Assembly (NCBI GenBank): GCA_008632985.1
Contig: QPGO01000084.1
Span: 62,001-126,000 of the forward strand
Direction: 5' to 3'
Length of the DNA: 64,000 nt
Origin: Psammoneis japonica
Taxonomy: Eukaryota
Below are positions 38,439 to 64,000 of the stretch, in pieces. Within the stretch, counting starts at the first letter, position 1. The number at the start of each line of letters is the position of its first letter. The position numbers and the translations under genes are program-made. The notes beneath the pieces are model-generated. The model was not told where the DNA came from and did not search any database. It saw nothing but the letters and a program-made list of their open reading frames with translations.

Positions 38439-39215
38439 GTCCTGAACACCATCACTTCATCGTAAAAAATGAGCTGCCAATGCGGCGAGACGAAGAGAAA
38501 CTCACTCAAGCAGATCCCGAGAGGCATGGCACTGTTTCCAAACGAGCAGATTGCAGCTGCTGTGCAGAAATGAGCATCACGCTGATTGGAGCAACATCAG
38601 CGAGGATGAAAATGTCGCAGGTTCCCAGCGAAATGAGTGTCACGCTGATTGGAACAAGTTGTCGCTGATGTTGTTCCGAACAACATCAGCGAGGATGCAA
38701 GTGTCGCAGGTTCCTCTGCTAAAGAGCGGATGGGATGCTCAGTGCTCCTGTGCTGTGAAAGATCCTGATTGATTCTTCCTGACAGATGCCGGCATTGTCA
38801 TTGCGACGACGTCGAGCGAGATCGCTCCAGCTGACAAAAAAGAATTTGAAATTCCGACGTAGAGACGAGCAGCAATTGCCCCTTGAAGAAAGCCACGTCA
38901 TGCAGTGCTGCACTGCACTTGAAGTGATGACGTGTTCAGATGCTTCCATCATCTTTTCGCTCTCTTTCGAAACAAACACGACACGACACTTCGTGACCGT
39001 GCGATGAAACCTCCCCCCCCGTCCCGTTGCTGTAAACAATGCCTGCAGCATGACTCCAGTGGCCTCTCTAGCGAATCGCATTTGCTGCGTTTGATGAGCA
39101 ACAAAGGCAATGACAGTGCTTTTACCGTTCCCACTTGGGTGATGTTCCTGTTTGGTGTGGTGGCGAGACATTTTGTTCCTCATTTTCTTTTTGATTCTTC
39201 AGATCAATCTCGTCT

Positions 39216-39878
39216 TTGCTGGCATCTATCGGGCCATGTTGGTGCTCACATTTCCCACGCATGTTTTCACACGAGCCGGTTGTGCCATCAGTCTTGCACA
39301 CAGTCTTGGCTGCTGCTCCATCTCTGCTCTGGACACGCATCGCAAAGAGCTTGGTGTCTAGCATGACACAAGTCTCATCGATTGGATGCCTTCGGAAACA
39401 CGACGCCGTGGCCAACGTCATTCGCGATCAAAAGGTGGAGGCCATGATCATTCGGGCGTTTCTGGTCTTGCGCAAGGTTCTTTGCTCTGTGGAATCCGCT
39501 ATTGAGGGACGCCAAGATGCTACAACCACTTACAAGCATGAGCCTTTTGGCGAATTTACGAGAAGTTTGTCGACCCTGACGTCCAGGGAGGTGGAACGGA
39601 CGTTCAATGCTCTCGAAGAAAACAGCGACGGGCTGTTGGAGCCCAAAGAGTTCGCATGTTTACTCAACAAACTTGGCATTCCAATCACCATGGAAATGTC
39701 CAAAAAGATTGTCCAAGAGCTTGACACAGACGGGGACGGATTTGTGAGCAAAGATGAATTCATGATCTTTTACGAGCAATGTGTCGTCCAGAATAAAACC
39801 ACGCCATTCCCAAAGGAGAAGACAGAAGCATTGTTTGAGATGTTTGATGCCGATGGCAGTGGAGAGATCACAACATAA
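39216..39878 (+). pseudogene. EF-hand protein fragment, copy 1
   Basis: ELDTDGDGFVSKDEF, and FDADGSGEITT* truncated within the loop. Confidence 0.65.
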
Positions 39879-42800: not shown

Positions 42801-44619
42801 AGTAGTGGTGCCAAACATGGTTGAGTCAGTAGGGTCAGCCACGTCCGGGCTCCAACCAACCAAGCGGGTAGGAGTGGCTGGAGCCGAGCTAGATGGAAAC
42901 CCGGGAGAATCCGGTGAGGAAGAGCGGAGCGGTTCAATGGACCACGGGTCAGCTTCGCCTATTTGTGGCGCGAACTTGCATCCCGCCAGGAGAAAGTCGT
43001 CCCAACCTGACAGTTGGAAATAAATCGCAACAAGCCAAAAAAAACGTCTTGTAACTGTAGTCTACATTGTGCAAGATTCGACCGATGGGAAAAGTTGCGC
43101 TGTGGAACGCTCCCTTGCCCTTGATCTGCGTCATGTGAGCGGGCATGGACGGACGAGACTATTTTTGGAGGATTTGTCGCACAAAGATCTTGGAGGTTGA
43201 CAGCAATGGCAACAGAGACATTAACACTTGTCAGAGTTGTTCTCTTGAGATTGTGGCAAAAGTTCGTTGGGATTTTGAAGAAGGGCTGAATTGAAAATAC
43301 CGGTGACCATCATCATGGGGTTGTGGTCGTGTCCTGTCTGCGACCAAATGGAGTTGAATCGTGACTGTCGTAATTTGATGCGTGCGCAATTGAAAGAAAG
43401 CAGGCCCCCTGCGGAAACGGTGCCCTGTCGGTCTTGCACCCTAGCTGTCGTTGTTGTTGCTGCCATTGTTTCGCTTTGTGTCGTTGCTCAGAACATGATG
43501 GAGTCCTTGGCGACTCCAAGTCATTTACGATGACAGGGAAATGCTCGAATGCAGCAATGGAGAAGCGGGGCCGGCCACTGGCAGGTTGGTCTCCGACGAC
43601 CCTACTCGAAGGGTGGCAGCTGTCAAAACGTAGACTGTTTGCATGATTTCTTCGAGCGTGAAGACCAAGCATCTGCAAAAAAGTCCCGCTGAGTTCAAAA
43701 GGCTCTCAAACTAGACACCAGAACTAGCTTTTACCTCTCTCGGTTCGGCTGCAGCAAGCAGCCGTTATGCACTGTTATTTCAGTGCGCGCAGCATCGAAA
43801 TGGCTGCTCAATCTCATCCACGCATCCTTTGAACGGCCTGCTTTCCTTTCAACGCATTGGCGAAAGTGCGCTCCGTCACTGTCTTTTCCCAATCACTGAG
43901 TTCCGACAGAATCTTGTTCTTGTTTGTCGACAGGTCCACACAGCAGGGCAGCACCTTCTCCACCACAGTGGAGCGATTGCAATCAGATGAAACGCAAACT
44001 GCGGAAACGCAGCAGTCACATGAAAATTTGGAGGCCATTGCTTCTGCAATGCATTCGGCCACTTTTGGTTGATCAAAGTCAGAGTCGACCATTTGATTGT
44101 TTTTCCACAGTCAGCTGGCGTCATGCCATCAATGCCGTCTCCCAATCACGATCGTTTGCTCTTTTTTTGACAAGATCGTAATCATTGATAGATTCGTCCA
44201 ATTCCTTGAGCAGAAGCGCCATGGAAGGCGTTGGTGGCTCCAAGGAGGGCGGAATGACCACATCTTCTTCTTCTTTCTGCCAACCACCACTGTGCTCGTA
44301 CGGCGATCCTCCAAACACAGCAAAAGGTGATGAATGCGCAAGGGGTTCAGAAATGTTTGTGCCGTCCACAAAGCCAGCAGAAGGCTGCTGTTCGGAGGGT
44401 TGGGGGATGCGCCTGCTTGGAGGAACGGGTCCGGCTTTCACGGGGATTTCAATCTCGGGGTTGTCAATGCAACAACCTGTCTTGACAACAATCTTGATTG
44501 CGTGTCGACACGAAATGAGTTTTCCTGTAAATTTGTCATTGGCATCCTGTCAAACGTGGTTTGAAATGCGAAAACGACAAGGGCGAGCTCCACGCAGGCA
44601 ATTGCCCACAGAGAAGACA

Positions 44620-45512
44620 TCAGTCTTGCCGCACGACCGCACCAGAGCACGTGCCATTCTCCAGCTCCTTTTGAACATCTTGAAAGTCCTCCATGCTGCT
44701 TTCAGTGGATGCAGTTTCCCAAGCAAACTGGGGAAAGTCGACCGTCGCTGGTGTACGAACTTTAAATTCGCGGTGGCTCTGCGCAGACCATTCGAGTGTT
44801 TCTTGGGGGGTTGCTTGGATGGCAGTCACTGCAACGGTGGCGTGATTTTCGCAAGACATGCGAACTTTTGTCACGCTCTCTCCCTTGTCCAACATGGTGT
44901 CTTGTGCGCATGCTCAGAAGAGAATCTGTCCTCGATTCCAGCAACAACACGAGCGGACCTGTTTCTCAACGGGCTCTCCGCGTTATGGTGGCGCTTCCTT
45001 TGCAGGGGCTTTGCAACAATTGTCGCTGGTTGCTTGGCTTTGTAGTCGCCAATCCATCCAGACCCTTTTAGCTGTGCACGCATTTCACAGGCAATGCCAT
45101 GTTGGTTGGAAAACGAACGCCCCGCAGCCTCCATGGACGATGGCAACCCTTCTGGCAGATTCACTTGGAACTTCATCTGGTGCCTTCCTGCCTGGATCCT
45201 GTTGTTTACAATGACGTTTTCGTCAAGCGGCACATTAATTTGGATCAATGGTCATGTCGCTTCTGGCATGCGCGTGTGACGATCTTGTTGTTGTGTGTCG
45301 CCTGATGATTGATGCACGTCTTCGTGTTCCACCTTTGCGATTTCATGTCCTTCCAGCAAAGCAACACATTCTTTCGCCGATGCTTCCTTGTTAATGTCAA
45401 GGTAGACACTTCCCTCCAGCATCATGGAGCCTGCTTGAAAAATGCTCGATTCTATGGAGAGAAAGAGAGACGCAAATGTGACAATTGCGTGAGAAAACCG
45501 GTGCTGGAACAT
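44620..45512 (-). pseudogene. Arrestin-domain gene, degraded, copy 2
   Basis: Duplicate of 37552-38438 with independent substitutions and an extra stop. Confidence 0.6.
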
Positions 45513-46334
45513 GTCCTGAACACCATCACTTCATCGTAAAAAACAAGCCACCAATGCGGCGAGACGAAGAGAAACTCACTCAAGCAGATCCCGAGAGGCA
45601 TGGCACTGTTTCCAAACGAGCAGATTGCAGCTGCTGTGCAGAAATGAGCATCACGCTGATTGGAGCAACATCAGCGAGGATGAAAATGTCGCAGGTTCCC
45701 AGCGAAATGAGCATCACGCTGATTGGAACAAGTTGTCGCTGATGTTGTTCCGAACAACATCAGCGAGGATGCAAATATCGTAGGTTCCTCTACTAAAGAG
45801 CGGATGGGATGCTCAGTGCTCCTGCGCTGTGAAAGATCCTGATTGATTCTTCCTGATAGATGCCGGTGTTATCATTGCGACGACGTCGAGCGAGATCGCT
45901 CCAGCTGATAAAAAAGAATTTGAAATTCCGACGTAGAGACGAGCAGTAATTGCCCCTTGAAGAAAGCCACGTCATGTAGTACTGTACTGTACTTGAAGTG
46001 ATGACGTGTTCAGATGCTTCCATCATCTTTTCGCTCTCTTTCGAAACAAACACGACACGACACTTCGTGACCGTGCGATGAAACCTCCCCCCCCGTCCCG
46101 TTGCTGTTAATAATGCCTACAGTATAACTCCAGTGGCCTCTCTAGCGAATCGCATTTGCTGCGTTTGATGAGTATCAAAGGCAATGACAGTGCTTTTACC
46201 GTTCCCACTTGGGTGATATTCCTGTTTGGTGTGGTGGCGAGACATTTTGTTCCTCATTTTCTTTTTGATTCTTCAGATCAATCTCGTCTTTACTGGCATC
46301 TATCGGGCCATGTTGGTGCTTATATTTCCCATAC

Positions 46335-46952
46335 ATGTTTTCACACGAGCCGGTTGTGCTATCAGTCTTGTATACAGTCTTGGCTGCTGCTCCGTCTCTA
46401 CTCTGGACACGTATCGCAAAGAGCTTGGTGTCTAGCATAACACAAGTCTCATCGATTGGATACCTTCGGAAACACGACGCCGTGGCCAACGTCATTCGCG
46501 ATCAAAAGGTGGAGGCTATGATTATTCGGGCGTTTCTGGTCTTGCGCAAGGTTCTTTGCTCTGTGGAATCCGCTATTAAGGGACGCCAAGATGCTACAAC
46601 CACTTACAAGCATAAGCCTTTTGGCGAATTTACGAGAAGTTTGTCGACCCTGACGTCCAGGGAGGTGGAACGGACGTTTAATGCTCTCGAAGAAAACAGC
46701 GACGGGCTGTTGGAGCCCAAAGAGTTCGCATGTTTACTCAACAAACTTGGCATTCCAATCACCATGGAAATGTCCAAAAAGATTGTCCAAGAGCTTGACA
46801 TAGACGGGGACGGATTTGTGAGCAAAGATGAATTCATGATCTTTTACGAGCAATGTGTCGTCCAGAATAAAACCACGCCATTCCCAAAGGAGAAGACAGA
46901 AGTATTGTTTGAGATATTTGATGCCGATGGCAGTGGAGAGATCACAACATAA
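46335..46952 (+). pseudogene. EF-hand protein fragment, copy 2
   Basis: ELDIDGDGFVSKDEF and FDADGSGEITT*. Confidence 0.65.
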
Positions 46953-49843
46953 GGAGACGCTCGAAACCTTTTCCTTGGGCTTACGTGAGCGCGGTGAAGA
47001 CGGTAGTGGCACCATGTACTGGATATCTACAATGAAATGGGAGTGGAGCGAATTAGAGACGGCGAGTACACTGGAAGAAATGCAGGAGCGTTCACTTGGA
47101 TGCATCTCTTGGGTGTAACGGGATTCATACTTGCCACAGGGCGCCCAAGGTCTCAAGGCGGTGATAAAATACAAGCTTGGGTATGATCCAGTCGAGGTGG
47201 ACACGGAAGACATAGTGCAAGTTGCGCAAGAACGACCGGTCGACATGGCGACCTATTCTGCGTCGGAAACCTGTGCCGACCTTTTCTCTCTATGAAAGTA
47301 TGTTTACATGTTTATCTTTTGCATTTGCACCGTCATTCCCATGGGACCCGAAGGTGTCTTGCGCGAAGGGAGTGGCACTCTGTGTGAAACATTACTCATG
47401 GTTCAAGCCGTAAAGAAAAATATCGTTTGTCCCAACAAGCAAGTTGACGCCTTGGCCATCTTTCACGATGGGCAATTACTGGAAGGTGAAACGTATATTG
47501 GTAGAAAGGTGTGCATAGTGTCTCGAGACGGGTGTCTGTCGCTCGAACGTGGTTTACAAGTTTGATTTGAAACCGAGCGCGTTTCAAGGTTTGATTGACA
47601 GTGTTGATCGGTACCGGTTTCTTACCTTTGCGATTGAAATGGAGGGTGGTATGGATCGGACCTAGATTTGCAACTATGATTAGGTACCGGTAAGTTCTTG
47701 TTGTTGATTAATGTTCTGCAGTTTTAGTATTGTACTCGCGGTTTGCTGTCGTTTCCCCCCCTATCAGATTCGTTGTCAGATTGTCGAGCAGCTCGAGATG
47801 CTTCGTGATCGACTCAGTTGGGTGGAAAAGCCGTATGTTTCCTACGCACGCACAAAAGCCAAACGTTCTTGGTGACCTTTTCCTACGTTTACGGTGTAAA
47901 AAGCTAATAGGCCTCTGTCAAATATCTTGTTTTGTTTTCGTGGATGATAGACTTATCGCGAAACATGCAATTGAGCAACGTAGTTACTGAAACTGATGTT
48001 GTTTGTGGTATATCATAATCCATGATTTCTATACCTAAGCGCCTTCTGAACGGAAGTATGCAATTAGGAAGCACTTCGTGAGAAGTAGGGACGGTAGCGC
48101 CGCTTTCTAGAGTCCAATTTGTACGTGTTCGTTCTCCCTTGAATTAAACCATCAGTACAGTCGCCCTGATGCTCAAAATACCGTATTTTCCCGTCATTTA
48201 AACCACCCCACAGAGTCGCTTTCCGTCACAGCCACCATGAGTTGTCCAATCACATTGGCAGCCAGATTACATTTTTCACATGGTGAACGCAACAACTCAA
48301 CCATCATGTTTAGATTGAACTCTGGGAGCTTGACATCGAAAACAGTCATTCATTTGATGTGCTTCAAAGCACTGCACTGTGCTTGGTGGAGCAATTGAGA
48401 GATGCCATTTTGTGGCATTGTGCACCTCAGAGACTTTAAACAGCAAAGAGGTTGACCATTGAAAAGGAAAGAGGTTGACAATCAAGTGGTGATTGGGTTT
48501 GCCAATTTCTGAAAATTGTGAAAATGACAATTGTGATGCTTGGCAACCAACAGCCAGAAGAAAGAAATGCTTGAGGCAGCTTCTTTTTGCAGCTGAGTCA
48601 ACAAAGATGAGCACACACCAGGGGCTTGTGGAGAACAGGAAGTTCTTGAATGCACAAAGTGAGAAGAGAGTCAGTGCACCACTCTTGCTTGTTTTGAATC
48701 TTGGGCAACCCTCTTCAGGTGGTGCACTCATTGGTTGACATCACTTTTTGCTCTGTGCTGGCTGGTTGAGAGGTTGGTGGCATTTTCATGATTCGCAGCT
48801 TGAGGCATGTTTTGATGCATGAGCACATCATGTGCAACGCCACCTTCAGAACATGCTGCTTGCCAGATCCAGAGTCAACAGCTCTCTGTGCTCAAGCTTT
48901 GCCAGCCAGACTTTTTGTCACAATGCACCTCTTCTCCTGTCACTGTGGTTGCCTCCATCAAAGCCCAAAGTCCACACAGCCCTGGCCATCTACAAAGCAC
49001 TCCTGCAGAACTTTTCTGCCAGCTTCCCTTGCACAAAGCAGCTCTTGGCAACAGCTCCACCCACGTGCTGGGCTGCAGCAAAAGACTGTCTTCCAAGCTG
49101 CCACATGAGGTGCCCAACTTGTTGGGGTTGTGCCAAGCTCTTCACATCACAAAACAAGGTGTTTCTGGCACTGGTGATGGCAATGTGGAGCCCTTCCTGT
49201 GCAGCTTTGCAGGGGCATGGATGCCTCCAGAGTGCCAGTCCAGCCACAAGCATCATGCCATCCTTGCCAGTGCTTTGCCAGCAGGGTGCAGCGCCAAAGC
49301 TGCCTGAGGAGCCTTGGACACCAGCAGATCAATGCCAGCGCAGTGCCGCTGGCACAGAGTGCAAGCTGGCTGGACTGCCCTGCCCCACACATGGTGCCCC
49401 CCTTTTGCAACTGGCAAGTGCCAACCTGATGGACACGCTGTCATGAAAACTCCCTGAGCCAAAGCAGGAGCTGGCATGTGAGCCCCTGTTGCCCCCCAAA
49501 ATGCCACGAAGCTGCAAAATGGCACAAGCATCCTCAAGCTTGCTTGTCCGTGCCACAGGCCAATTTGTTGACACACCACTCTGCCCCCCCCCCCCCCCCC
49601 CCCCCAGCACAAGTGGGAGAGTGCACTTTGCCGTGGCTCTGGCTGGAATGACAGATGTGGCTGCACTCCACACAAACAACAATGCATGCCCTCAAAGAAC
49701 AGCCAGTTGAAGGTGCTTTCTCACACAGCTGGCTGACACTTTCCTGTGGTTGACTGTCAAAAAAGAGCAAAGGTCAAGAAGGACAGATCATCAGCTGCAG
49801 CAGAGCATGAGCTCCCCACTGTGCTGTGCCCAGCCAAGGCACT

Positions 49844-50119
49844 TGACAGGATTTGAACAGGATTTAGGTGCGCGCGAAGTATCGCGCGCTGTTTAGTTTA
49901 CCGTGCACAGTTTTGTGTGCTTTAGTTCCGCGCGTTCACGCGCGATGTAGTTTGCTTTCGAGCCACAAGGCTCACAAGAATAATAACAGTAGCCCGATTA
50001 TACCGACTTACACGTCTTTCGGCTCCTGTAACGGTCTCTGAGCGGAGACTCATCTGCTATTTAGACAGCAGTAAGGAGTTATTGTTTGAATTCTTGCCAT
50101 TTGCCTTCAATTTCTATCA
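49844..50119 (+). repeat. 5' LTR (276 bp)
   Basis: TGACAGGATT...TTTCTATCA; matches the 3' LTR with 18 transitions and no indels. Confidence 0.95.
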
Positions 50120-51061
50120 GATTAACAGTCTTGCTCATTGTCAACCCATTGAGCAACCGCCATCGTCGTCGTTGATTTACCAACGACGCTATTTTTTTAA
50201 TTCTACGTGGACCTCCGTATATATTCTACATACATCGGCGAGTCTACGCGCATTCAATACCAGGGCATCGGCAGGAAGTTAACGTCACCGTCAAGTCTCC
50301 TTACCGCTGGATATCTGGATTGATTATACTACCTTTGATCGCTGAAGACATACATTCAACGGTCATATCCAAGTCTATCCTTGATCCTCATCCCTTGATG
50401 TACCTGTTCATCGGTTAACGGTCAAGAACCCTGCATGTTCAAGGATCTTCGTCGCTGAAGACATGTGTATATATACATGTCTTCACGGCCAAGAACCTGT
50501 ACCCACTCTTCGGACTGCGGTTTTGCCACCACTCTACAAGCACACCGAGTCCATTGTACCTGATCTACCCCGGACTGCTGGTGCTCTGCAGTTCTACTAG
50601 GTCCACGAGGACGACTGTGAGAGCAAGCAGCCGTGATTGCAGCCTGCGTTGGGGCGAGGGTGCTTTCCCGCGTTTGTTCGTTCGTCCACAGCGCCTGACG
50701 CCTGCGTCAACTGGCCAGCCTGATCGGGAAATCCAACCGACATAAAACAAGAACGGCTCGGGGGTCTTGTCCACCTCCAGTCAGCTCACCTGCAGGGGTT
50801 TACAACCCGCTGCTCCGCTCGCAAGCAACCCAAAGCGCCGCCAGCTGTGGGTTCGGACGTGCCGGCACAACTCTACGGACCGGACAGGAAGTTTGGCACT
50901 TGACAACAAACAGGATGACAAAGCCCGGCGACTTCTGATTTTAAGACAGTTCAAGATTTCAAGTCAAGTCCATTTCAAGTCAAGTCCATTCTCACCCAAG
51001 TTTCGAGTCTGCCTTCGCTTCCCAACCAGAATTGATTGTCCTGACACCATTTTTGTCTGCC

Positions 51062-54000
51062 ATGGTTCTCACTCGTCAGCAACAAACCGATGGTTTCGAG
51101 CACGTGGTTGGAACCGTGCTTGCCCAAGGTGCTGGGAGTCCTCTTCGTTTGGCTTTGGCCCAAGACGGCACGGACTCATGTCAGGAACTGTTCACGTTCA
51201 CACCGTCCCAAATCGACTCGCTTGAGTGCGACAACGGCGCTGATGCAATCCCTTTGCCCCGTGGTCATGAGAACATGTTAGCAGCACTGGTCAGTCTGTA
51301 CATTGTTAAAGCACACAAAGGTCTTGACGTTGCCAACGACTCCTCTTTGTTCACGCATGACGAGTTCCTTGCCCACCGCCTCAGCCCCGACCACATGTCT
51401 TCTGTGTCCATCGGCAGCTCACCCCTTGCACCTCCACATGTCACCAACCCGACCAAGGCACGCGACCCGGTGCGGGACTTCAAGCGAGGCATCAAGCGTG
51501 ATCCCACTGCTTTCACGGCTCTCAAATCCGACAAGCAGTGGCACACTTGGCACACCTCACTTGTGGCACAAGCCCATGCCCAAGACGTCGAGTGCACTCT
51601 AGACTCGTCGTACAAACCGACCAGCCCCGAAGACAAACTGCTCTTTGCTGAACAGCAAAAGTGCATGTTCGCCGTCTTCGAACGCATCCTTCTCACCGAC
51701 AAGGGCAAGGCTCTCATTCGCGAAAATGTGGGGTCTTCTGACGCACAGACCGTCCACCACTCCTTGTCTGAGTGCGCGCTTGCCTCCACCCGCGCATCTG
51801 TCGAGTCCTCCACCCTGCTCACGTGCCTCACCACCGCGCGTCTTGGTGATGGCACTTGGAAAGGTCCGACCCACGGGTTCATCCTTCATTGGCAAGATCA
51901 GCTGCGCAAGTGCGAGGCACTCATCCCGGCCAATGACCACTTCTCTGAAGGACAGAAGCGCGTCATGCTCGAGAATGCCGTGCACCCTGTCGAGGAACTC
52001 CGTGCTGTCAAGAACCAAGCTGATCAGCATCGCACGCAGAGTGGCAAGAGCCTCACATGCGATCAACACTGTGGCTTGCTCCTCTCCGCGGCAGCTCAGT
52101 GTGACAGCACGTTTCAACCCAAGACGACACCTCGAGCTCCCCGACGCGCCATGTGCGCACACGACGTCTGCTCCGAGGAACCGTCCGACGATGTGTTCTA
52201 CGACATTGACAGCGACGTTGACGTCCTTCAAGCCAATGCTGCCTGCACCCGCGGTCCCAGCCTCACCGGTGTCCAATGGAGACGTCTCCCTCCCAACCAC
52301 CAATGGCTCTGGGATTCGTTGCCCGATTCCTCCAAGGCGATCATCCTTGAGCATTCTCGTCCACCTCCCCGCAACCCGCGAGCCAGCAACTGCCATGAGT
52401 CTGTTACGGCCAACCTTCACGACCAACGCCTTGGGAGTGACGGTGATGTCCACTTGTCCAACACGACTCCTGCTGACTCTGGTGACTCCGCCCCACATGT
52501 GGACGCCACTTCGGATGATCCCATCCTGGCGCACCTCACCAAGCGCACGCCACTGCCACCCGGTGATCTGCAACGTCTGTTGTCTCCTGACCAAGCCCCC
52601 AATGCCAGTCGACCGGGGCCATCCGCCGCTTCCTCTGCCCCGCCAGCTTCTGCAGATGACACAGAACTCAACGGCGCACTTGCCGCCGCGTTGACAACCA
52701 CAATGTCATTTGCTCTGCCTCTGCTCATCGATCCACACGCACTGGCGCTCCAGTCGATCGTGGGGCCAACGGCGGCATTGCTGGCGACGACGTTCGCGTC
52801 ATTGCACGCACCTCTCGCCAAGTCGACGTTCAGGGCATTGACGATCATCAATTGGCAGACATCCCCATTGTCACCGCTGGTGCCGTCATTGAGACCCAGC
52901 ATGGTCCCGTCATCGCCATCCTCCATCAGTGCGCATGCACGGGAAAGGGCAAGACCATCCATTCCTGCGGCCAGCTCGAATGGTGCAAACAGGATGTCAA
53001 CGATCGCTCTGTCAAGGTGCCCAACGGCTTGCAACGTGTTGCCACTCCTGATGGCCATGTCATCCCCATTGACATCAAGGCTGGCCTGCCTTGTGTTGCC
53101 ATGCGACCTTGCACTGACGCCGAATGGGACACCCTGCCCCATGTCGTCCTCACCGGTGATGACACATGGGACCCTTCCGTCCTCGATCACTCTGTCACTG
53201 ACGACGACCAGTGGCACGACGCGATCTCTGACCCACAGGACGATCCCACTGCCAACCTGTTTGACGAGTGTGGCAACTGCCGTCATCGTGTCGTTGTCAA
53301 CGAGACCATCTTGTCCGCTTCCTTGTCTGCCGATCACGCGTCCGCCCTCGATGATCACCTCATTCCGAACGACGACATGTTCTGCGAATGTCATCTGCAT
53401 GCGATTGCCCCCCAGGGCGATGACGTTCCACCTCCGGAGCGCACTGTGCAGCCCAAGGATCCCCCCTTCGAGTCTCTTCGGCCTTGCTTTGGCTTCCTGC
53501 CTGCCGATGCGGTCCGTCGTACTTTTGACTGCACCACGCAGTGCGCCCGCATGCCCGCCGGCACACACCTTCGCAAGGCCTGCAAATCACCCAACCCCGC
53601 CCTTAATGTGCACCGCCGCAACGAGCCTGTCGCCACTGACACCGTTTGTGCCGACACCCCGGCCGTCGACTCTGGCTGCACCAGCACCCAACTGTTTGTT
53701 GGCACCGAGTCTACCGTCACTGACGTCTGCGGCACTGAGACGGACAAAGAGTTTGTCAACACACTCGAGGATCAGATCCGTGCACGTGGTGCCCCATCCA
53801 AACTCATCAGCGACCGTGCTCAAGTTGAGATCAGCAACAAAGTGCTCGGGATCCTGCGCGCCCTCTTCATCTCTAGCTGGCAAAGTGAGCCTCACCAGCA
53901 ACACCAAAACTTTGCCGAGCGTCGATGCCAGACCGTGAAGCGCATGGCGAACACTGTCATGGATCGTTTTGGTTCGCCCGCCCACACATGGCTGCTGGCG

Positions 54001-56730
54001 CTCATGCACGTGTGCTTCGTGCTCAACCATGCAGCGTCCCCACGTCTCCACTGGCGCACGCCCCTCGAGACTCTCACTGGCTCCACCCCGGACATCAGCC
54101 CATTGCTTCGCTTTCACTGGTGGGAACCCGTGTGCTTCCACCTCGATGACTCCGATTGGCCGTCTGAATCCCATGAGTTGCGTGGACGCTTCGTTGGCAT
54201 TGCTGAGCACGTCGGCCACCAGATGACCTTCAAGATTCTATCTGATGAGACTCAGAAGATCCTCCACCGGTCCAACGTCCGCTCCGCTACCCCCGATCCT
54301 GCCGTTCGAAACCTGCGTCTTGATCCTCCTGATGGGGAGCCACCTGAAACCATCATCAAATCTCGCCATGACGACAACCCCGTCGACTCTCCTGATGGGG
54401 AGATCAGGACACCCAAGATGCCAGTTTTCGATCCGCAAGACATCATTGGACGTACCTTCCTCATGCAGCCACAAGAGGACGGACAACACCACAGAGCTCG
54501 CATTGTCAAGGCCGTCGAAGACCACGAATGGAAAGTGAACGGCAATCCCGAGCTCACCAAGTTCGTCTGCTCTGTCAACAATGACGAATGCGAGGAAGTC
54601 CTTGCCTGCAATGACATCATGAATCACATTGAGCAAGAAGACGAAGACACCACTGTTTGGAAATTTCGACGCATCGTGTCACACGAAGGACCTCTGAAGC
54701 CTCACGACCCAACCTGGAAAGGCTCCAGCTACAACATCATGCTTGAATGGGAAAGTGGGGAGATCACGTCCGAGCCTCTTGCCATCATCGCCAAGGACGA
54801 CCCCGTCACCTGTGCCATCTGTGCACGAGAGAACGGACTCCTCGACACGGATGGCTGGAAGCGGTTCCGCACCATCGCGAGGCGCCAAAAGAAGCCATTT
54901 CGCATGGCCAACCAAGCCAAGCTTCGCTCCTTCCGCACTGCACCCCGCTGCAAGTGTGGATGCGAAGTTCCCCGCAACTACAAACACGCCATGTCACTGG
55001 ACGAACGCAACGGCAACCGCAAGTGGGGAGACACAACCAATCTCGAGATGGACCAACTCGACGAATGCGAAGTCTTCCATGACTGCGGGCCCTTCAAGTC
55101 TTCCACTCCTCCTGCGGGACACAAGAAGATCCGAGTGCACCTGGTGCACGATGTGAAACACGACGGTCGCCACAAGGCACGACTCGTAGCCGACGGGCAC
55201 CTCACGGACGTACCTGTCGACAGTGTCCACTCCGGAGCAGTCTCCCTCCGTGGCCTTCGGCTGATGATTTTCCTGGCCGAACTCAACGAGTTGGAGACAT
55301 GGGCCACCGACATTGGCAATGCCTGCCTTGAAGCCACCACCAAGGAGAAGCTTTACATTGCAGCTGGACCCGAGTTCGGCAAACTCGAAGGACACATCCT
55401 TGTCATCCACAAGGCACTGCATGGACTGCGCAGCTCCGGTCTCCGCTGGCACGAGCGCTTCGCCGACTGCCTGCGAGCTGAAGGCTTCTTCCCCTGCCGC
55501 GCCGAACCCGACATTTGGATGCGCAGGAACGGCGACCACTGTGAATGCATTGCCGTTTATGTGGATGACCTCGCCATTGCCATGAAGGACCCTCAATCTT
55601 TCGTCGACACTCTCACGGAAAAGCACAAGTTCAAGCTCAAGGGTGCGGGACCCATTGAGTTCCATCTGGGTTGCGACTTTTCCCGGGAACCCGACGGAAC
55701 CTTGTGCCTGTCTCCGCGCAAGTACATCGAGCGCATGGTCGACAGCTGTGCCCGACTGTTTGGGGAGAAACCTGCCACCAACGCCCTGTCACCTCTAGAG
55801 AAGGGTGACCACCCCGAACTGGACACTTCCGAACTGCTGGGACCCGATGGCATTCACAAGTTCCAGTCTCTTGTTGGTTCACTCCAATGGGCAGTGTCTC
55901 TTGGTCGAATTGACATTGCCATGGCCGTCATGTCACTCTCTAGCTTCCGAGCTGCGCCCCGTCAAGGCCACTTGGATCGTGCCAAACGCATCTGTGGGTG
56001 CCTCTCCAAGATGCGACACGGTGCTCTCCGCGTTCGTACGGAAGAGCCCGACCATTCGGATCTCCCTGCTCCGGCCTGTGAATGGATGCATTCCGTGTGT
56101 GGTGAAGCAGAAGAGATGATCCCGAAGGACGCTCCACCGCCCCTTGGCAAGTTCGTCACTGCCACCCACTACGTCGATGCAAACTTGTGCCATTGCATGC
56201 TCACCGGACGCTCTGTCATGGGAATGCTCCACTTCCTCAACAAATTCCCAGCTGATTGGTTCTCTAAGAAACAAGCCACCGTGGAGACTGCGACCTGCGG
56301 GTCTGAATTTGTTGCCGCAAGGACTTGTGTTGAGCAGATTGTCAACCTGTGCATCACCCTGCGCCACCTTGGCGTCCCGATCCGCAATGTCAGTTGCATG
56401 TTCGGTGACAACAAGTCGGTTGTAGACAGTGCCACCATCCCGCACTCCAAGTTACACAAGCGACACACCGCACTGTCGTTCCACCGTGTGCGTGAGGCAA
56501 TTGCCTCTGGTTGCCTTGAGCTCCACTTCATCGAAGGCTCCCGCAACCCTGCTGACATTCTCAGCAAGCATTGGGGTCACTCCCAAATCTGGGACCTTCT
56601 CCGCCCCCTCATGTTCTGGAACTTCATTCCATCCGAAATCGAATCTGTTTCTGTGGCTCCTCAAGCAAACTGGGGAGTGACAGGATTTGAACAGGATTCA
56701 GGTGCACGCGAAGCATCGCGCGCTGTTTAG
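51062..56730 (+). pseudogene. gag-pol polyprotein with a frame change near 52675 and heavy Tyr->Cys/His conversion
   Basis: Gag DFKRGIKRD; protease VDRGANGG; integrase LISDRAQVE and QNFAERR; RT HKARLVA and YVDD; RNase H GSEFVAAR and NPADILSK. Confidence 0.9.
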
Positions 56731-56953
56731 TTTGCCGTGCACAGTTTTGTGTGCTTTAGTTCCGCGCGTTCACGCGCGATGCAGTTTGCTTTCGAGCCAC
56801 AAGGCTCACAAGAACAACAACAGCAGCCTGATTGTGCCGACTTGCATGTCTTTCGGCTCCTGCAACGGTCTCTGAGCGGAGACTCATCTGCTGTTTAGAC
56901 AGCAGCAAGGAGTTGTTGTTTGAATTCTTGCCATTTGCCTTCAATTTCTGTCA
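56678..56953 (+). repeat. 3' LTR (276 bp)
   Basis: TGACAGGATT...TTTCTGTCA followed by GCACT. Confidence 0.95.
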
Positions 56954-58416
56954 GCACTGGCACATTGGAGACACTGCATTTTTGAGCGAGAGCACAACAC
57001 TGCTTGCAAGTGTGGCTGTGCAGGTCAAGTGACATGCCCAACATGAGCATGTCCACAAGCAGCTGAGAGCTGTCGGCAAGGGCGTCTTAGAGGTGCAGCC
57101 ACTTTGGGCCAGTGAGAAGCTTGCAAAACTCTTGTCCTGGCTGTGTGGTTGAAAAAAAAAGTGAAAAGCTCAGAGCAAAGCTGGTGGGTCCAAGAGTCAT
57201 TGAGCATGCCAACTGTGGCTGCTCCCTGCACAGATCACTGCAACACCTCCAATGTTTCCTCAAGAGCTTGATCACAATGCAAGCAGTCAAGTTGGCAAGT
57301 TTTGCTTCTCCCTGGCGCTCTGCAAATGTGGTGGCGCACAATCATTTTTTGTCATCCGTCGCATGTTTCGCACGCACATTTCTGCGTGTTCCATCATAAA
57401 AAATTGTTCCACACTGCCTGTTTTGCGAAGCCAAAGGCTTTCTGTTGTCTGCACTCATGTCAACAAAAATGCGCTGGGCATGTTCTTTGATGTCTAAAGA
57501 ACACACCCGGGCATGCTGCAAAGAATGCACTTCAAGTGTGGAGGAGGAGATGCGTTCGCAAAATTGCCTCTTTTTCTGTTGGCGATCATTCATGCATCCA
57601 TTGCTCAACAATTTTACTGCGGAGCTCGCACGCAGAATTCTGCGGGCCCAATGTCACAAAAAGTCCCACCCAGGACTGGAACCCGTCAGCCAAACCATGC
57701 TGGAAGAGGAGCACATGTGGAGCTGCCTGGCAGCTGGTGGGGTGCTCAGCTTGGTGGAACAGCACACTCAGTGTCACATTGTCACACTGCAGCTGCGCCA
57801 TGCATGCCCACCCTTTGCACCGCTGCAGCAACTGCCTCGATGAAGAAGAAGCCAATGAGCCTCTCTTTCCCTGCTTCATGGTCAATTTTGCGTGCGTTTT
57901 CAATGGCTCGAATCCCCCCCTTTTTCCCTTTTCCTTTTGTTCAGCCACGCATGCTCAATGAACGAGTTGTTTGCCTTGTGAACGCGTCAGCGCAGTCGGT
58001 CTGGTTTGACTTGACCGCCATTTTTTGAAACCGACGCCGTCCAAATTGTTTTGTCGTCCATTTTTTTGTGTTGATTTTCGCACCCAAACAAACCGCCAAG
58101 CGAACTCACAAGGATACGGCGAGCAAGAAAAAGAAGATGGGTCGCTCACCTTCATACGGTACCCTGATTGCCCACCCCGCCTGTGACAGGGGAGCTGTGT
58201 GTGTGTTCGTGGTTGCGCGAGCACGGCTTCGCCGTGCGTTGAGTTTCAATGTTAATGTGCACATATATGTGTATATTCCTGCTACTGTTAGCATTATTTG
58301 TCTATTAATGTATAAATAAATGTAAGTACATTTATATAAAATTATAATGAATAAGATATAAACTGCCACGCAACCATGACATCACCATATTCTCCCCTAC
58401 CGGTACCACAGGGGTG

Positions 58417-61100: not shown

Positions 61101-61899
61101 AAAGATGATCACCTAGTCCTGCAAACGGCTCTAGAGAAGATGAGGCACAGATGGAGATGGAAAGCGACGCGGGTGGCGAAGACGCTGTTCAAAAGGACGA
61201 ACGGCATGATGCAAATCAGGTTGGTACAAAAGGAGGACGCGGCCGTGAGTGAGGTTGTGACCGCCATGTGGGCCATTGAGGCGGATGTGGGAGTACAGAT
61301 GTTGCGATACATGGCCACTTCTCGCATGGGAAAGTCGTCAAATCATTTCAATGGCGTTCTACGAATGGCAATCTCTGCTGTAGGTGCGGCGTTAAGGATG
61401 GATCGTCCAGATGAAGTATTTTTTTTTAATTAGCTCATGATTTTGCAATTTTCTCGTACTTCGCCCGTGTTATTTTGCGATGCCTCTGAGAACCCCCAAA
61501 CACTTCTGAGTGTGTCCAGCCCCCATCAGGGCTGTTAGACCTTTATGTGAACTGCGCTTTTCAGGCGCATCCCAACGAGGCAGCAGTGGAAGGCAAGGTG
61601 TGCACACCACCACGCAAGTCCTTGGCAAGAGCGGAAGGCCAACGAGAAGCCACCTTTGTTGCGCGCAGTGCAGTTGGTGCAATTGTCAGCGCCGCACAAG
61701 CACACATGAGCGACCGTTGTGCAGGAAAAGGCATGCGGGGCCTTTGCTGAAATTCTTTAAATCCTGCTTGCATCAACATGAATGTCTCATGAAAATGTCA
61801 AATCGCCTTGTAAATCACACCAGCACATGACGGCATGGCACGCATGCTGTCGGCATCACTTGCCTTTTTGGTGGCATGGTGCCGTGTCAGAAGAGAGAG

Positions 61900-64000
61900 A
61901 TGCCATGCAGTCAGGGCCAACCATTTCAACTCAACAACTCAACATGCAATGGTGCTCCAGTGGACCACAGTGCCAATGTGACGATGTTTGTGTCATTGCC
62001 CTTGTTGCTGCTCACAATGGGATTGACGACCACCAGCTGGTTGGCATTCCTGTTGTCACTGCCAGCGGTGTCATCCACCCTCAATGTGGACCTGTCATTG
62101 CCATCCTTCACCAGTGTGCTCACACTGGAAATGGCAAGACCATGCACTCTTGCTTCCAGCTCCAGGGGCACAAGCATGATGTCAATGACCAGCTGACCAA
62201 GGTCCCCAATGGCTTGCAGTGCATTGCTGCCATTGACAGCTGTGTCACCCCCATCAATGTCAAAGGCACCATTGACGGCTGCATCATTCCCATCAACATC
62301 GAAGGCCGAAGCCAAATGGGGAGCTTTTTTCCCCATGTCATTCTTGCTGGCAATGACACCTGAGACCCATCTGTCCTTGACTGCCAGCTCACCAACAATG
62401 AGAAATGGCATGATGCCATGTCCAACCTTCAAGCCAACCCAACCACCAACCTCTTTGACAAGTTTGGCAACTGTCATGATCACTGGCATGTTGTTGACAA
62501 TGCAGTGCTTGTGGACCCTGTCCTTGATGACCATGTCCTCCAATTTCTTCTGTGGGTGCCACAAGCACAAGATCAACCCCAAGGATCCCAACTGTGAATC
62601 CCTGTGCACCTGCTTGGGCTTTCCTCCTGAAGGATGCTCTTTGCCACACTTTTGATTGCACCACACAGCATGCTTGAATGCCTGCCAGTGCAAACCTGAA
62701 GAAGGTGTGCAAGTCACCCAAACCAGCTCTCAATGTGTCCACCAATGCAGTGAACCAGTTGCTGCTGACACTGTGTGCTCTGACACCCCTGCCATTGACT
62801 CTGGATGATGTGTCAGCACATGGCTCTTTGTTGGCACAGAGTCCCTTGTCGCTGATGTGTGAGGCACCAAGGCTGACAAGGGGTTCATCAACATGCTCAA
62901 AGGCAACATTCACAACCCTGGTGCTCTGTCCAAGCTCGTCAGTTGTTGTGCTCAGGTTGAGATCAGCAACAAGGTCCTTGACATCCTCTGAGCTCTCTTC
63001 ATGTTCAGCTGGCAAAGCAAGCCCACCTCACCAACAGCACCAGAATTTTGCTGAAAGCTGCTGCCAAACAGTGAAGAACATGGCCAACACCATTGTGGAT
63101 TGCTTTGAATCCCCGGACTGCACTTGGCTCCTTGCCCTCATGCACGTGTGCTTTGTGCTCAACTGCGGGGCTTCTGCCATGCTCTGCTGGCATGCCTCTG
63201 CCAAGGTGCTGTCTGGATCTACTCCCAAAGTCAGCCCCCTCCTCCATTTCAACAGTGGGAACCCTTGCACTGCCACCTGGACAATTCTGACTGGCCGTCT
63301 GAATGCTGCAAGTTGTGCTGTCACTTTGTTGGCACCGCCAAACATGTCAGCCATCAAATGACACCAAAGAGATTCTCTCTGACAACACTCAGAAGATGCT
63401 TTGCCACTCAAGTGTCCATTCTGCTGCTCGCAACCTGTGCTGTTGTCTGCTTGCAACCTGTTTCTTGATCCTCCTTGAAAAACATCTGCTGAACCCATCA
63501 TCAAATCTGACACCAACTCCAAGGATTCACCAGATTTGCCAGATGGGGAGGTGATCAGAATGCCCAAAATTCTGGTTTTTGACCCCAAGGACATCATTGG
63601 ATGCACCTTCCTCATGAAGCCACAAGAGGACAGACAGTGCTGCAGAGCCCACTTTGTCAAGGCCATTGAAAACCAAGACTGGACAAAAATTGGTGACAAC
63701 CAAGAACTCATCAATTTCATTTGCTCAGTCAACAACAAAAAGTGCACAAGGAAATCCTTGTCTGTGATGATGCCATGCACCACATGGAGCAAGAAGATGA
63801 GGATGCCACCATCCGCGGAAGTTCCAACACACCGGCTCACACAAAGGGTTGTTGAGACCTCACATGACCCCTCACTGAAAAGGCTCAAGCTGCCATGTCA
63901 TGCTTGAATGGGAGAGTGGGGAAATCACTTCTGAGCCTCTTGCCATCATCGCCAAAGATGACCATGCCACTTGTGCCATCTGCACATGCAAGTGCAGATT
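61900..64000 (+). mobile_element. Second, older copia pol remnant (protease-integrase region) related to the 49844 element; continues past the window
   Basis: GPVIAILHQCA, KSPKPALNV, HQQHQNFAE, FDPKDIIG and EWESGEITSEPLAIIAKDD, colinear with 52750-54830. Many stops and frameshifts; almost no TA, few CG. Confidence 0.9.

What the first reader, a model, noticed from the sequence alone, without database searches (positions are those of the whole stretch)
49844..56953. Post-integration TpA->TpG/CpA hypermutation of a retrotransposon: candidate 'reverse-RIP' genome defence
Seen: the two 276-bp LTRs differ at 18 sites, all transitions and all polarised. Fifteen are TA in the 5' LTR versus TG (7) or CA (8) in the 3' LTR, e.g. 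GAATAATAACAGTAG vs GAACAACAACAGCAG and TTATAC vs TTGTGC. The other three are CG->TG/CA. No transversions or indels. Established: LTRs are identical at integration; fungal RIP is CpA->TpA; CpG decay follows 5mC. Inference: adenines in TpA are converted to G on both DNA strands after insertion, far above background. The direction is fixed by conserved Pol tyrosines becoming Cys/His. I know of no described eukaryotic defence system with this signature, but cannot search the literature here.
Basis: partly seen in the sequence, partly recalled or inferred. Interest (0 to 1): 0.95.

Follow-up and report, generated by a model that had tools for sequence, protein, structure and literature searches.

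The report
TpA-to-TpG/CpA hypermutation in a diatom
A copia-type retrotransposon and several other stretches of this diatom genome have had nearly every TpA turned into TpG or CpA after they arrived, the same odd mutation process first reported in 2026 in an unrelated alga.

Summary
The two 276-bp LTRs (49844-50119, 56678-56953; 5-bp target duplication GCACT) differ at 18 sites, all transitions: 15 are TA in the 5' LTR against TG/CA in the 3' LTR, and 3 are CG against TG/CA.

The direction is TA->TG/CA.
- Of 34 Pol columns where 60 relatives conserve Tyr, this copy keeps 6; 18 are Cys and 8 are His.
- A 7,071-bp tandem duplicate in the window has 31 sites with CA in one copy and TG in the other. 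In one sub-region 50 of 75 TpA changed in copy a and none in copy b.
- The change happened on integrated DNA, on both strands, about 1,600 times faster than in neighbouring duplicated DNA.

About 21 kb of the 64-kb window is nearly TpA-free.

The host is a pennate diatom.

The signature is not unprecedented. A 2026 bioRxiv preprint reports de novo TpA->TpG/CpA hypermutation in Bigelowiella natans. I found no diatom report in six full-text searches.

New here are the LTR-retrotransposon, duplicate and cellular-gene targets, a 5'-TAC-3' preference and co-located CpG decay. The enzyme (a DNA adenine deaminase?) is inferred, not shown.

The parts
49839..49843 (+). Target-site duplication GCACT, 5' side
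   Evidence: Same 5 bases directly after the 3' LTR at 56954-56958. Shows that the two LTRs belong to one insertion event.
49844..50119 (+). 5' LTR, 276 bp, TG...CA, unmutated state (18 TpA, obs/exp 0.92)
49844..50600 (+). TpA-normal island: 5' LTR plus about 480 bp of leader. It starts exactly at the element's 5' end. Partly mutated near its 3' edge: 6 of 6 displayed variant places in 50400-50479 are TG here and TA in other copies.
   Evidence: TpA positions; read laying variants and their contexts
50600..56953 (+). Hypermutated body of the element including the 3' LTR: TpA obs/exp about 0.10, TG 1.57, CA 1.39, CpG 0.85, GC 56-60%
51062..52609 (+). Gag-like part of the polyprotein (35-40% identity to residues 1-550 of relatives)
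   Evidence: tblastn with 4 relatives
52675..56730 (+). Pol (protease-integrase-RT-RNase H region; Pfam RVT_2 = Ty1/copia type), in the -1 frame relative to gag. Open for 1356 codons. Tyr 0.44%, Cys 3.76%, His 5.16%.
   Evidence: Some other copies carry one extra C after 52674, which would join the frames.
56678..56953 (+). 3' LTR, mutated state (3 TpA left; 15 TA->TG/CA and 3 CG->TG/CA relative to the 5' LTR)
56954..56958 (+). Target-site duplication GCACT, 3' side
48311..49843 (.). Older TpA-free and CpG-poor block into which the element inserted, upstream part (2 TpA in 1.5 kb; CpG obs/exp 0.10)
56959..58110 (.). Downstream part of the same older block (4 TpA; CpG obs/exp about 0.5)
34452..41522 (.). 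Copy a of a 7,071-bp tandem duplicate. TpA-hypermutated over about 35952-40452.
41526..48596 (.). Copy b of the duplicate. TpA-hypermutated only over about 43026-45776. 45776-47526 keeps normal TpA and serves as the unmutated reference for copy a.
61687..64000 (+). Older fragment of a related copia pol (67-70% nucleotide identity to 52834-54821), TpA obs/exp 0.02, CpG 0.19; runs off the window
7080..8207 (-). TpA-free block (obs/exp 0.03) inside a non-transposon gene (ORF 6535-8343: 2OG-Fe(II) oxygenase + F-box + SUMO-like domains). 6 of 7 Tyr-conserved columns are lost, all 6 inside the block.
1199..3757 (.). Old TpA-free (0.04), CpG-poor (0.44) block with no recognisable coding content
21508..25988 (.). 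Old TpA-free (0.04), CpG-poor (0.22) block with no recognisable coding content

Best explanation
This is a Ty1/copia LTR retrotransposon in a pennate diatom. After integration it was hit by a DNA-level, domain-restricted hypermutation that converts TpA to TpG or CpA, that is A->G on one strand or the other. The same process has acted on at least eight other stretches of the window: an older copia fragment, part of a recent tandem duplicate, part of a cellular gene and several old anonymous blocks. It is the same kind of process as the TpA hypermutation seen de novo in Bigelowiella natans (2026 preprint).

Shown:
- Direction, timing after integration or duplication, and action on both strands.
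- A rate about three orders of magnitude above neighbouring DNA.
- Sharp but copy-specific domain borders.
- A strong preference for 5'-(not G)-T-A-C/T-3' around the changed A.
- Slower CpG->TpG/CpA decay in the same domains.

Inferred:
- The chemistry is deamination of deoxyadenosine to deoxyinosine by a TadA/ADAT-like or other deaminase-superfamily enzyme. My odds are about 0.5.
- The enzyme is aimed at silenced, probably cytosine-methylated chromatin rather than at sequence homology.
- The effect is to disable invaders. It removes Tyr codons, TATA-like and AATAA-like signals and TAA/TAG stops. Unlike RIP it never creates a new stop, because the only in-frame route to TGA is from TAA, which is already a stop.
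For: (1) LTR pair. 15 of 18 TpA sites changed in the 3' LTR against 0 of 113 other A/T bases, and there were no other non-CpG substitutions, so the insertion is young. The intact 5-bp duplication shows one insertion event.

(2) Direction from protein.
- In 668 columns conserved in at least 80% of 60 relatives, Tyr is kept in 6 of 34 (18 Cys, 8 His, 2 Phe). Every other residue is kept in 75-100% of its columns.
- Tyr is 0.44% here against 3.85% (range 2.86-4.51) in the 120 relatives listed. Cys is 3.76% against 0.92%.
- 29 of this copy's 51 Cys align to a Tyr majority.

(3) Direction and timing from the tandem duplicate (7,071 bp, no indel, 162 mismatches).
- 31 dinucleotide sites have CA in one copy and TG in the other, plus 1 CG/TA pair.
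- 75 sites are TA against TG/CA.
- 13 are CpG-type, 6 are other transitions and 4 are transversions.
- In 38702-40451, 50 of 75 TpA changed in copy a and 0 in copy b. In the duplicated left flank 69 of 69 TpA are kept and 2 of 1,500 bases differ. That gives a per-site rate ratio of about 1,650.

(4) Both strands are hit: 7 TG to 8 CA in the LTR, and 22 TG to 28 CA in the duplicate.

(5) Other copies in the same sample carry TA where this copy has TG, at 8 of 8 displayed G>A places.

(6) None of 78 metagenomic relatives is TpA-poor (obs/exp 0.49-1.00, against 0.10 here).

(7) Context. The changed A is followed by C in 51% and by T in 29% of 65 polarised events. Where only one strand offers TAC, that strand was hit 28 times and the other strand once (p = 1e-7). 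In the old blocks ATAC and ATAT survive 0 times, against 250 and 106 in the background.

(8) Precedent. The B. natans preprint reports 230 of 231 mutations in two viral regions as A->G/T->C, all at TpA, at about 6e-7 per site per generation. It also reports 124 TpA-poor clusters enriched in RT/DDE domains.
Against: - No whole genome is held. Genome-wide spectra, copy number of each target and the presence of a candidate deaminase could not be examined.
- The 15 LTR sites themselves were not polarised with other copies, because the read-laying table was cut. Their direction rests on the rest of the element, on the normal TpA level of the 5' LTR (obs/exp 0.92) and on the duplicate.
- The runs found are one sample of one study and may be the assembly's own data, so sequencing artefact is excluded only indirectly.
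- The tandem 'duplicate' could be two haplotypes placed in tandem by the assembler. That would not change direction or rate, but it would remove any argument about duplication as a trigger.
- Why the 5' LTR and leader escaped is unexplained.
- TpA is its own complement, so sequence alone cannot say whether A or T is the base attacked.
- 0 of 78 environmental relatives show the signature, so it is not general among such elements. That search kept the 80 best matches to an intact query, which disfavours mutated copies.
Confidence: 0.85

Rival explanations
1. Ordinary RIP-like C->T mutation (CpA->TpA) hit the 5' LTR and leader of a family that is naturally TpA-poor. On this reading the 3' LTR and body show the original state.
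For: The LTR comparison alone is symmetric. RIP-type CpA->TpA would give the same 15 differences, and only 15 of 52 CA+TG sites would need to change.
Against: - 28 of 34 conserved Tyr are lost in this copy, 26 of them to Cys/His, which no functional Pol could have had.
- All 78 relatives have normal TpA.
- 31 CA-versus-TG sites in the duplicate cannot arise by CpA->TpA.
- Copy b of the duplicate and the 5' LTR sit at the genome's normal TpA level.
- The host is a diatom, not a fungus.
Confidence: 0.02
2. The changes were made before integration, by A-to-I editing of the element's RNA (ADAR/ADAT-like) or of the cDNA during reverse transcription. They were then fixed by integration, as with APOBEC-edited retroviruses.
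For: Editing enzymes of this kind prefer a U/T before the edited A (stated in the preprint's Discussion). The target is a retroelement.
Against: - Reverse transcription makes both LTRs from one template, so 18 differences between LTRs of one insertion must be later (established retroelement biology; duplication intact).
- Both strands are changed about equally (7:8 and 22:28), whereas RNA or minus-strand editing gives one type.
- The same signature is in non-retroelement DNA: the flanks of the insertion, a tandem duplicate and a cellular gene.
Confidence: 0.03
3. The pattern is a base-calling, polishing or assembly artefact, for example a modified base at TpA in silent chromatin read as G/C by a long-read platform.
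For: Modified bases can cause systematic errors in some long-read consensus sequences (recalled, not tested). All runs found are from one sample.
Against: - Contigs built independently from a public run hold 66% of the stretch's 31-mers, and one matches 56927-57200 exactly.
- Contigs of the same run show many copies differing by the same kind of transitions (A>G 95, T>C 108, C>T 77, G>A 82, against 44 transversion places).
- The two copies of the duplicate differ in which strand changed at 31 sites, which a deterministic miscall would not give.
- The B. natans result rests on Illumina mutation-accumulation data.
Confidence: 0.03
4. Same phenomenon but different chemistry. Thymine in TpA is the target, for example through oxidation to 5-hydroxymethyluracil or another T modification that mispairs with G, giving T->C rather than A deamination.
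For: TpA is palindromic, so T->C on one strand equals A->G on the other. Nothing in the sequence decides between them. T-modifying dioxygenases exist in several protist groups (recalled).
Against: - No simple chemical route from T to C is known, whereas A->I->G is direct (established chemistry).
- The TAC preference around the changed A resembles the U33-A34-C35 anticodon context of TadA substrates (recalled, not tested here).
- The preprint found an ADAT2-like candidate with the DNA-editing residues in B. natans.
Confidence: 0.12

Closest known systems
TpA hypermutation of integrated viral DNA in Bigelowiella natans (Mettrop et al., bioRxiv 10.64898/2026.01.13.699255, 2026)
   Same: Almost only A->G/T->C, all at TpA giving TpG/CpA. 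Confined to domains. About 1000-fold above background. TpA-poor, CpA+TpG-rich clusters elsewhere in the genome, enriched in reverse-transcriptase and DDE domains. Acts on integrated DNA.
   Different: - Host is a diatom (Stramenopiles), not a chlorarachniophyte (Rhizaria).
- Targets here are a high-copy LTR retrotransposon, a tandem duplicate and a cellular gene, not a giant-virus or virophage insert.
- Depletion is near saturation (obs/exp 0.02-0.10, against 0.45 for their NCLDV region).
- A flanking preference (TAC, not G at -2) and co-located CpG decay are seen here. The words 'diatom', 'LTR' and 'retrotransposon' do not occur in the preprint's main text.
- Their evidence is experimental (de novo mutations); mine is comparative only. 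Its supplements are closed, so a motif table may exist there.
Repeat-induced point mutation (RIP) of Neurospora and other fungi
   Same: Dinucleotide-specific transition hypermutation of integrated repeats on both strands, far above background. Leaves a strong dinucleotide skew.
   Different: - Opposite direction (RIP: CpA->TpA, AT-enriching, creates stops; here TpA->TpG/CpA, GC-enriching, creates no new stops).
- Not confined to the duplicated length: large parts of the duplicate are untouched.
- Non-fungal host.
5-methylcytosine deamination (CpG decay) in methylated transposons
   Same: Accounts for the 3 CG->TG/CA LTR differences and for CpG obs/exp 0.1-0.5 in the older blocks. Converges on the same TG/CA products.
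   Different: Cannot produce TA->TG/CA. It is much slower here: 3 of 20 CpG against 15 of 18 TpA in the LTR, and 12 of 252 CpG sites against about two thirds of TpA sites in the duplicate domains.
APOBEC3 / ADAR editing of retroviruses and retrotransposons
   Same: Deaminase-type, context-dependent transition hypermutation that cripples retroelements. ADAR-type enzymes favour U before the edited A.
   Different: Those act on RNA or on single-stranded cDNA before integration and mark one strand. Here both strands of integrated DNA are hit, including non-retroelement DNA.
Ty1/copia LTR retrotransposons of diatoms (the element itself)
   Same: TG...CA LTRs, 5-bp target duplication, gag-pol with Pfam RVT_2. 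54-66% identity to about 1,850-1,900-aa polyproteins from aquatic metagenomes.
   Different: This copy is dead: 28 of 34 conserved Tyr are lost and gag and pol are in different frames. Assignment to a named diatom lineage (CoDi) is recalled, not tested.

Membership tests
TpA-targeted A:T->G:C hypermutation (B. natans type) | Substitutions almost exclusively A->G / T->C | tested here: met
   LTR: 15 of 15 non-CpG differences. Duplicate: 139 of 162 mismatched bases are of this type once polarised, with 4 transversions.
TpA-targeted A:T->G:C hypermutation (B. natans type) | All changes fall on TpA, giving TpG or CpA according to strand | tested here: met
   15 of 18 TpA against 0 of 113 other A/T bases in the LTR. 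50 of 75 TpA in region II of copy a.
TpA-targeted A:T->G:C hypermutation (B. natans type) | Confined to domains, with a rate about 1000-fold above the rest of the genome | tested here: met
   Nine blocks with sharp edges. Ratio about 1,650 against the duplicated flank. This is comparative, not a measured per-generation rate.
TpA-targeted A:T->G:C hypermutation (B. natans type) | Targets are integrated foreign or mobile sequences | tested here: inconclusive
   Two copia elements are targets. So are arrestin-like and EF-hand ORFs in a duplicate and a 2OG-oxygenase/F-box gene. Three old blocks have no recognisable content.
TpA-targeted A:T->G:C hypermutation (B. natans type) | Seen arising de novo during vegetative growth | not testable with these tools
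   Needs mutation-accumulation lines or time-series resequencing.
Fungal RIP | C->T at CpA (to TpA), AT-enriching | tested here: not met
   Direction is the reverse. The element body is 56-60% GC against 48% background.
Fungal RIP | Triggered by sequence duplication and covering the duplicated length | tested here: inconclusive
   Mutation of the duplicate began after duplication in both copies: about 100 TpA existed in region I at that time. But 1.5 kb and 1.07 kb of the repeat are untouched, and region II is hit in one copy only.
Pre-integration editing (ADAR / APOBEC type) | One strand edited; LTRs of one insertion identical | tested here: not met
   7 TG to 8 CA in the LTR and 18 LTR differences; 22 TG to 28 CA in the duplicate.
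Ty1/copia LTR retrotransposon | Paired LTRs with TG...CA ends and a 5-bp target duplication | tested here: met
Ty1/copia LTR retrotransposon | Copia-type reverse transcriptase (Pfam RVT_2) in a gag-pol polyprotein | tested here: met
   RVT_2 E = 1.4e-25. Collinear with 1,850-1,900-aa relatives over residues 1-1850.
DNA adenine deaminase of the TadA/ADAT kind as the agent | A deaminase gene in the genome that edits dA in T-A-C context | not testable with these tools
   No genome is held. Only the TAC preference and the preprint's ADAT2-like candidate in another organism point this way.

The most novel reading that the evidence does not exclude
Diatoms, like the distantly related chlorarachniophyte B. 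natans, carry a natural 'adenine base editor': a DNA deaminase with 5'-(A/T/C)-T-A-C/T-3' specificity. It is aimed at newly silenced or newly duplicated chromatin and erases TpA from transposons, duplicates and occasionally cellular genes within a time too short for ordinary substitutions. If so, it is an ancient SAR-wide genome defence that is the mirror image of fungal RIP. Here its onset after a duplication would make it at least partly repeat-induced.
Probability: 0.3. Interest if true: 0.92.

Novelty: new member of a known kind. Interest (0 to 1): 0.8.

Why it matters
- If the process is shared by diatoms and chlorarachniophytes, it is not an oddity of one alga. It would be a widespread, unrecognised way by which eukaryotes disable invading DNA.
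- It runs against the universal GC->AT mutation bias.
- It would shape GC content, dinucleotide skews and gene prediction in diatom genomes. Hypermutated DNA keeps long open frames in all six frames (25 frames of at least 100 codons over this element), which invites false gene calls.
- It can hit cellular genes.
- Some diatoms can be transformed and edited, so the responsible enzyme could be hunted by knockout.
- A natural enzyme that turns A:T into G:C in double-stranded chromosomal DNA with a defined context would interest base-editing research.
- The window offers clean natural experiments for that work: an LTR pair with one side untouched, and a duplicate with one side untouched.

Tried and rejected
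- No whole genome is held for the window. Genome-wide LTR-pair spectra, family consensus, copy number and a deaminase search were therefore impossible.
- Earlier-findings look-ups by place, words and sequence returned nothing.
- The look-up of sequencing runs listed 4 runs of one sample and one study, with no RNA holder listed.
- Read laying at 80% likeness showed a very abundant family (14,397 contig pieces in X1).
- Pfam on 105 stop-to-stop frames from the TpA-poor blocks found only arrestin-like and EF-hand matches in the duplicate, plus chance-level hits.
- The protein atlas gave no usable hit for frame 22252-23331. The atlas call on pyruvate carboxylase gave no useful taxonomy.
- Metagenome scan with a Pol alignment: 0 of 78 loci TpA-poor, so there is no second example from that source.
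- No terminal repeats mark the hypermutated part of the duplicate as a mobile element.
- GC-biased gene conversion and selection against TpA were considered and rejected. Neither is TpA-specific on this scale, neither works within a time with about 0.1% other divergence, and neither would replace conserved Tyr.
- Recombinant RNA templates were rejected as the cause of the LTR difference, because both LTRs of a new insertion are copied from one template.
- Literature: six full-text searches found only the B. natans preprint with this signature. One hit (PMC9258296) was checked by passage search and is unrelated.


Full report
OBSERVATION

The region holds one direct-repeat pair, 49844-50120 and 56678-56954. 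Read base by base, these are 276-bp LTRs with TG...CA ends. They are flanked on both sides by the 5-bp target-site duplication GCACT, so the two LTRs stem from one insertion.

They differ at 18 places, with no indel and no transversion. At 15 places the 5' LTR has TA and the 3' LTR has TG (7) or CA (8). At 3 places the 5' LTR has CG and the 3' LTR has TG/CA. TpA falls from 18 to 3 between the LTRs. 15 of 18 TpA sites differ, against 0 of 113 A/T bases outside TpA (Fisher p = 4e-17).

THE ELEMENT

- Frame 52660-56730 is open for 1,356 codons and carries Pfam RVT_2, the Ty1/copia reverse transcriptase (E = 1.4e-25).
- A search of 5.8 billion proteins gave 1,386 relatives. The best 120 are 54-66% identical and mostly 1,850-1,900 aa.
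- tblastn with four of them shows a collinear gag part (51062-52609) and pol part (52675-56640) in different frames.
- Some other copies in the sequencing run have one more C after 52674, which would join the frames.

DIRECTION

Four independent lines agree.

(a) Protein.
- Tyr is 0.44% of this Pol, against a mean of 3.85% (range 2.86-4.51) in the 120 relatives. Cys is 3.76% against 0.92%, and His is 5.16% against 3.56%.
- An alignment with 60 relatives has 668 columns conserved in at least 80% of them. Tyr is kept in 6 of 34 such columns; 18 are Cys, 8 are His and 2 are Phe. All other residues are kept in 75-100% of their columns.
- The codons are TGC 13, TGT 5, CAC 5 and CAT 3.
- Tyr is coded only by TAY, so the ancestor had TA and this copy has TG or CA.

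(b) Relatives. All 78 related loci fetched from metagenomes have ordinary TpA (obs/exp 0.49-1.00; lowest 1-kb window 0.34), against 0.10 here.

(c) Other copies in the same sample.
- Contigs of run X1 laid at 80% likeness gave 14,397 pieces. Variant places were A>G 95, T>C 108, C>T 77 and G>A 82, with 44 transversion places.
- All 8 displayed G>A places are TG in this copy and TA elsewhere.
- Three displayed adjacent pairs are CA here and TG elsewhere.
- That table showed only 40 of 418 places, and none of the 15 LTR sites.

(d) A tandem duplicate. This is the strongest line and is described in its own section below.

THE WINDOW AS A WHOLE

Nine blocks, 21.4 kb of 64 kb, are almost free of TpA (obs/exp 0.02-0.10) and rich in TG/CA (1.25-2.2). 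The rest of the window has TpA 0.58, CpG 0.96 and 48% GC.

The element sits inside an older block (48311-49843 and 56959-58110) that has lost both TpA and CpG. An older fragment of a related copia pol lies at 61687-64000. Blocks poor in CpG are all poor in TpA, but not the reverse. So TpA loss is the faster process.

THE TANDEM DUPLICATE

34452-41522 and 41526-48596 are 7,071 bp each, without an indel, and have 162 mismatches. The mismatches break down as follows:
- 64 lie in 32 adjacent pairs (31 CA against TG, 1 CG against TA).
- 75 are TA against TG/CA (63 with copy a changed, 12 with copy b changed).
- 13 are CpG-type.
- 6 are other transitions.
- 4 are transversions.

A site with CA in one copy and TG in the other can only come from an ancestral TA changed on different strands in the two copies. 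The alternative is an ancestral CG, but CpG is not depleted here (obs/exp 0.8-0.9).

By sub-region:

| Sub-region | TpA kept in both copies | TpA changed |
|---|---|---|
| Left flank, 34452-35951 | 69 of 69 (2 of 1,500 bases differ) | none |
| 35952-38701 | 22 | 9 in copy a only, 11 in copy b only, 30 CA/TG pairs |
| 38702-40451 | 25 | 50 in copy a, 0 in copy b |
| Right flank, 40452-41521 | 42 of 47 | 5 |

Three things follow.
- Most of the change came after the copies separated.
- It ran about 1,650 times faster per site than other change.
- Its borders differ between two nearly identical sequences.

The borders are therefore not set by sequence or by homology alone. If the assembler placed two haplotypes in tandem, the same conclusions hold, read as allele-specific mutation.

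TIMING AND SUBSTRATE

Reverse transcription builds both LTRs from one template (established retroelement biology), so the LTR differences arose on the integrated copy. Both strands are hit about equally: 7 to 8 in the LTR and 22 to 28 in the duplicate. Non-retroelement DNA is hit too. This excludes editing of the RNA or of the minus-strand cDNA as the source.

CONTEXT

I oriented 65 polarised events (50 from the duplicate, 15 from the LTR) so that the changed base is A.
- The next base is C in 51% and T in 29%.
- The base before the T is A in 43% and G in 9%.
- Where only one of the two strands offers TAC, that strand was hit 28 times and the other strand once (p = 1e-7).
- In the old blocks ATAC and ATAT have vanished (0 left, against 250 and 106 in the background). 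TTAA, CTAA, CTAG, GTAA, GTAC and CTAC partly survive.
- Tyr->Cys (18) outnumbering Tyr->His (8) fits the same rule, since TAY always offers a pyrimidine after the A.

The likeness to the U33-A34-C35 context of TadA substrates is recalled, not tested.

NON-TRANSPOSON TARGETS

- The hit part of the duplicate carries arrestin-like frames and an EF-hand frame.
- Block 7080-8207 lies inside ORF 6535-8343 (minus strand), which has 2OG-Fe(II) oxygenase, F-box and SUMO-like domains and five relatives in the database.
- Of 7 columns where those relatives conserve Tyr, 1 is kept, and it lies outside the block. Two are Cys, 2 are His, 1 is Met and 1 is Glu.

CONSEQUENCES READ FROM THE SEQUENCE

- In the 3' LTR the AATAATAA stretch became AACAACAA and TTATAC became TTGTGC.
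- TA->TG/CA removes TAA and TAG and cannot create a new in-frame stop. That is why 25 frames of at least 100 codons overlap the element on both strands.
- Inactivation is therefore by missense and loss of signals, not by nonsense as in RIP.

THE UNMUTATED 5' END

TpA density is normal from the first base of the element to about 50600. It is then low (4 TpA in 350 bp) and then about 0.5%. Six displayed places at 50400-50479 are already TG here and TA in other copies, which suggests a graded border.

I have no tested explanation. A variable border of a silencing mark, as in the duplicate, is my preferred guess. Gene conversion from an intact copy or cDNA is the alternative.

HOST

- The window carries a pyruvate carboxylase gene (9996-13534) and sulfotransferase-like genes in long uninterrupted frames.
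- The carboxylase's nearest named relatives are all diatoms: an MMETSP transcript of Asterionellopsis glacialis at 87%, Nitzschia sp. Nitz4 at 81%, Pseudo-nitzschia and Mayamaea at 79%, and Seminavis at 78%.
- The host is therefore a pennate diatom, not Bigelowiella.

WHAT IS KNOWN

A full-text search found bioRxiv 10.64898/2026.01.13.699255 (Mettrop et al., version of April 2026). I read the abstract, the whole Results and the Discussion, and searched the text for terms. Its supplements are closed. It reports the following:
- In 15 mutation-accumulation lines of B. natans, 231 of 302 nuclear mutations fell in one integrated giant-virus region and one virophage region.
- 230 of those 231 were A->G/T->C, and all of these fell on TpA.
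- The rate was about 6e-7 per site per generation, against 3.5e-10 elsewhere, and only some lines were affected.
- There are 124 TpA-poor, CpA+TpG-rich clusters and 324 TpA-poor coding sequences, enriched in reverse-transcriptase and DDE domains.
- The authors propose an ADAT2-like DNA deaminase.

The words diatom, LTR and retrotransposon do not occur in its main text. Five further searches found no other report of this signature and none in diatoms or other stramenopiles.

VERDICT

It is a second, independent lineage showing a process that was described only months ago.

Features not in the preprint's main text:
- Saturation of LTR retrotransposons.
- A clean LTR-pair and duplicate-pair demonstration of direction and rate.
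- A TAC preference.
- Hits on cellular genes.
- Co-located CpG decay.
- Copy-specific domain borders.

The enzyme, the targeting signal and the defensive role are inferred.

Noticed in passing
window 34452-41522 and 41526-48596: A 7,071-bp tandem duplicate without indels, 3 bp apart, 97.7% identical. Its right end lies inside an old TpA/CpG-poor block. It could be a real recent duplication or two haplotypes placed in tandem by the assembler.
   Followed up: partly
window 6535-8343 (minus strand): A 603-codon open frame combining 2OG-Fe(II) oxygenase, F-box and SUMO/ubiquitin-like domains, with only five relatives of similar length found in 5.8 billion proteins. Its 5' two thirds are TpA-hypermutated, so it may be a fresh pseudogene.
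   Followed up: partly
window 52610-52675: Gag and pol of this copy are in different frames (-1). Contigs holding 18% of the depth in X1, and the single contigs of X2-X4, carry an extra C after 52674 that would fuse them. Relatives have one frame. Whether most copies use frameshifting or share a deletion is open.
   Followed up: no
window 9996-13534 (plus strand): Pyruvate carboxylase gene in two long frames overlapping at 11852-12005 (a short intron or a frame change). Two paralogous sulfotransferase-like genes lie at 13849-15918 and 17128-18993 on the minus strand (67% nucleotide identity over about 580 bp).
   Followed up: no
window 30270-30794: Tandem array with a period of about 93 bp (85-91% identity between copies) inside a frame with a weak Tudor-like match (30051-31034, minus strand).
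   Followed up: no
window 1199-3757, 21508-25988, 48311-49843: Old blocks with TpA obs/exp 0.03-0.04 and CpG 0.10-0.44 and no recognisable protein domain in any frame. They are presumably transposon remains degraded beyond recognition by the two decay processes.
   Followed up: partly
window 49600-57200 in run X1: The family is very abundant in the sample. Summed contig word depth is about 60,000-130,000 over the body and about 250,000 over the LTRs, against about 60 for the single-copy flank. This depth is not a copy number, but it points to many copies and many solo LTRs.
   Followed up: no
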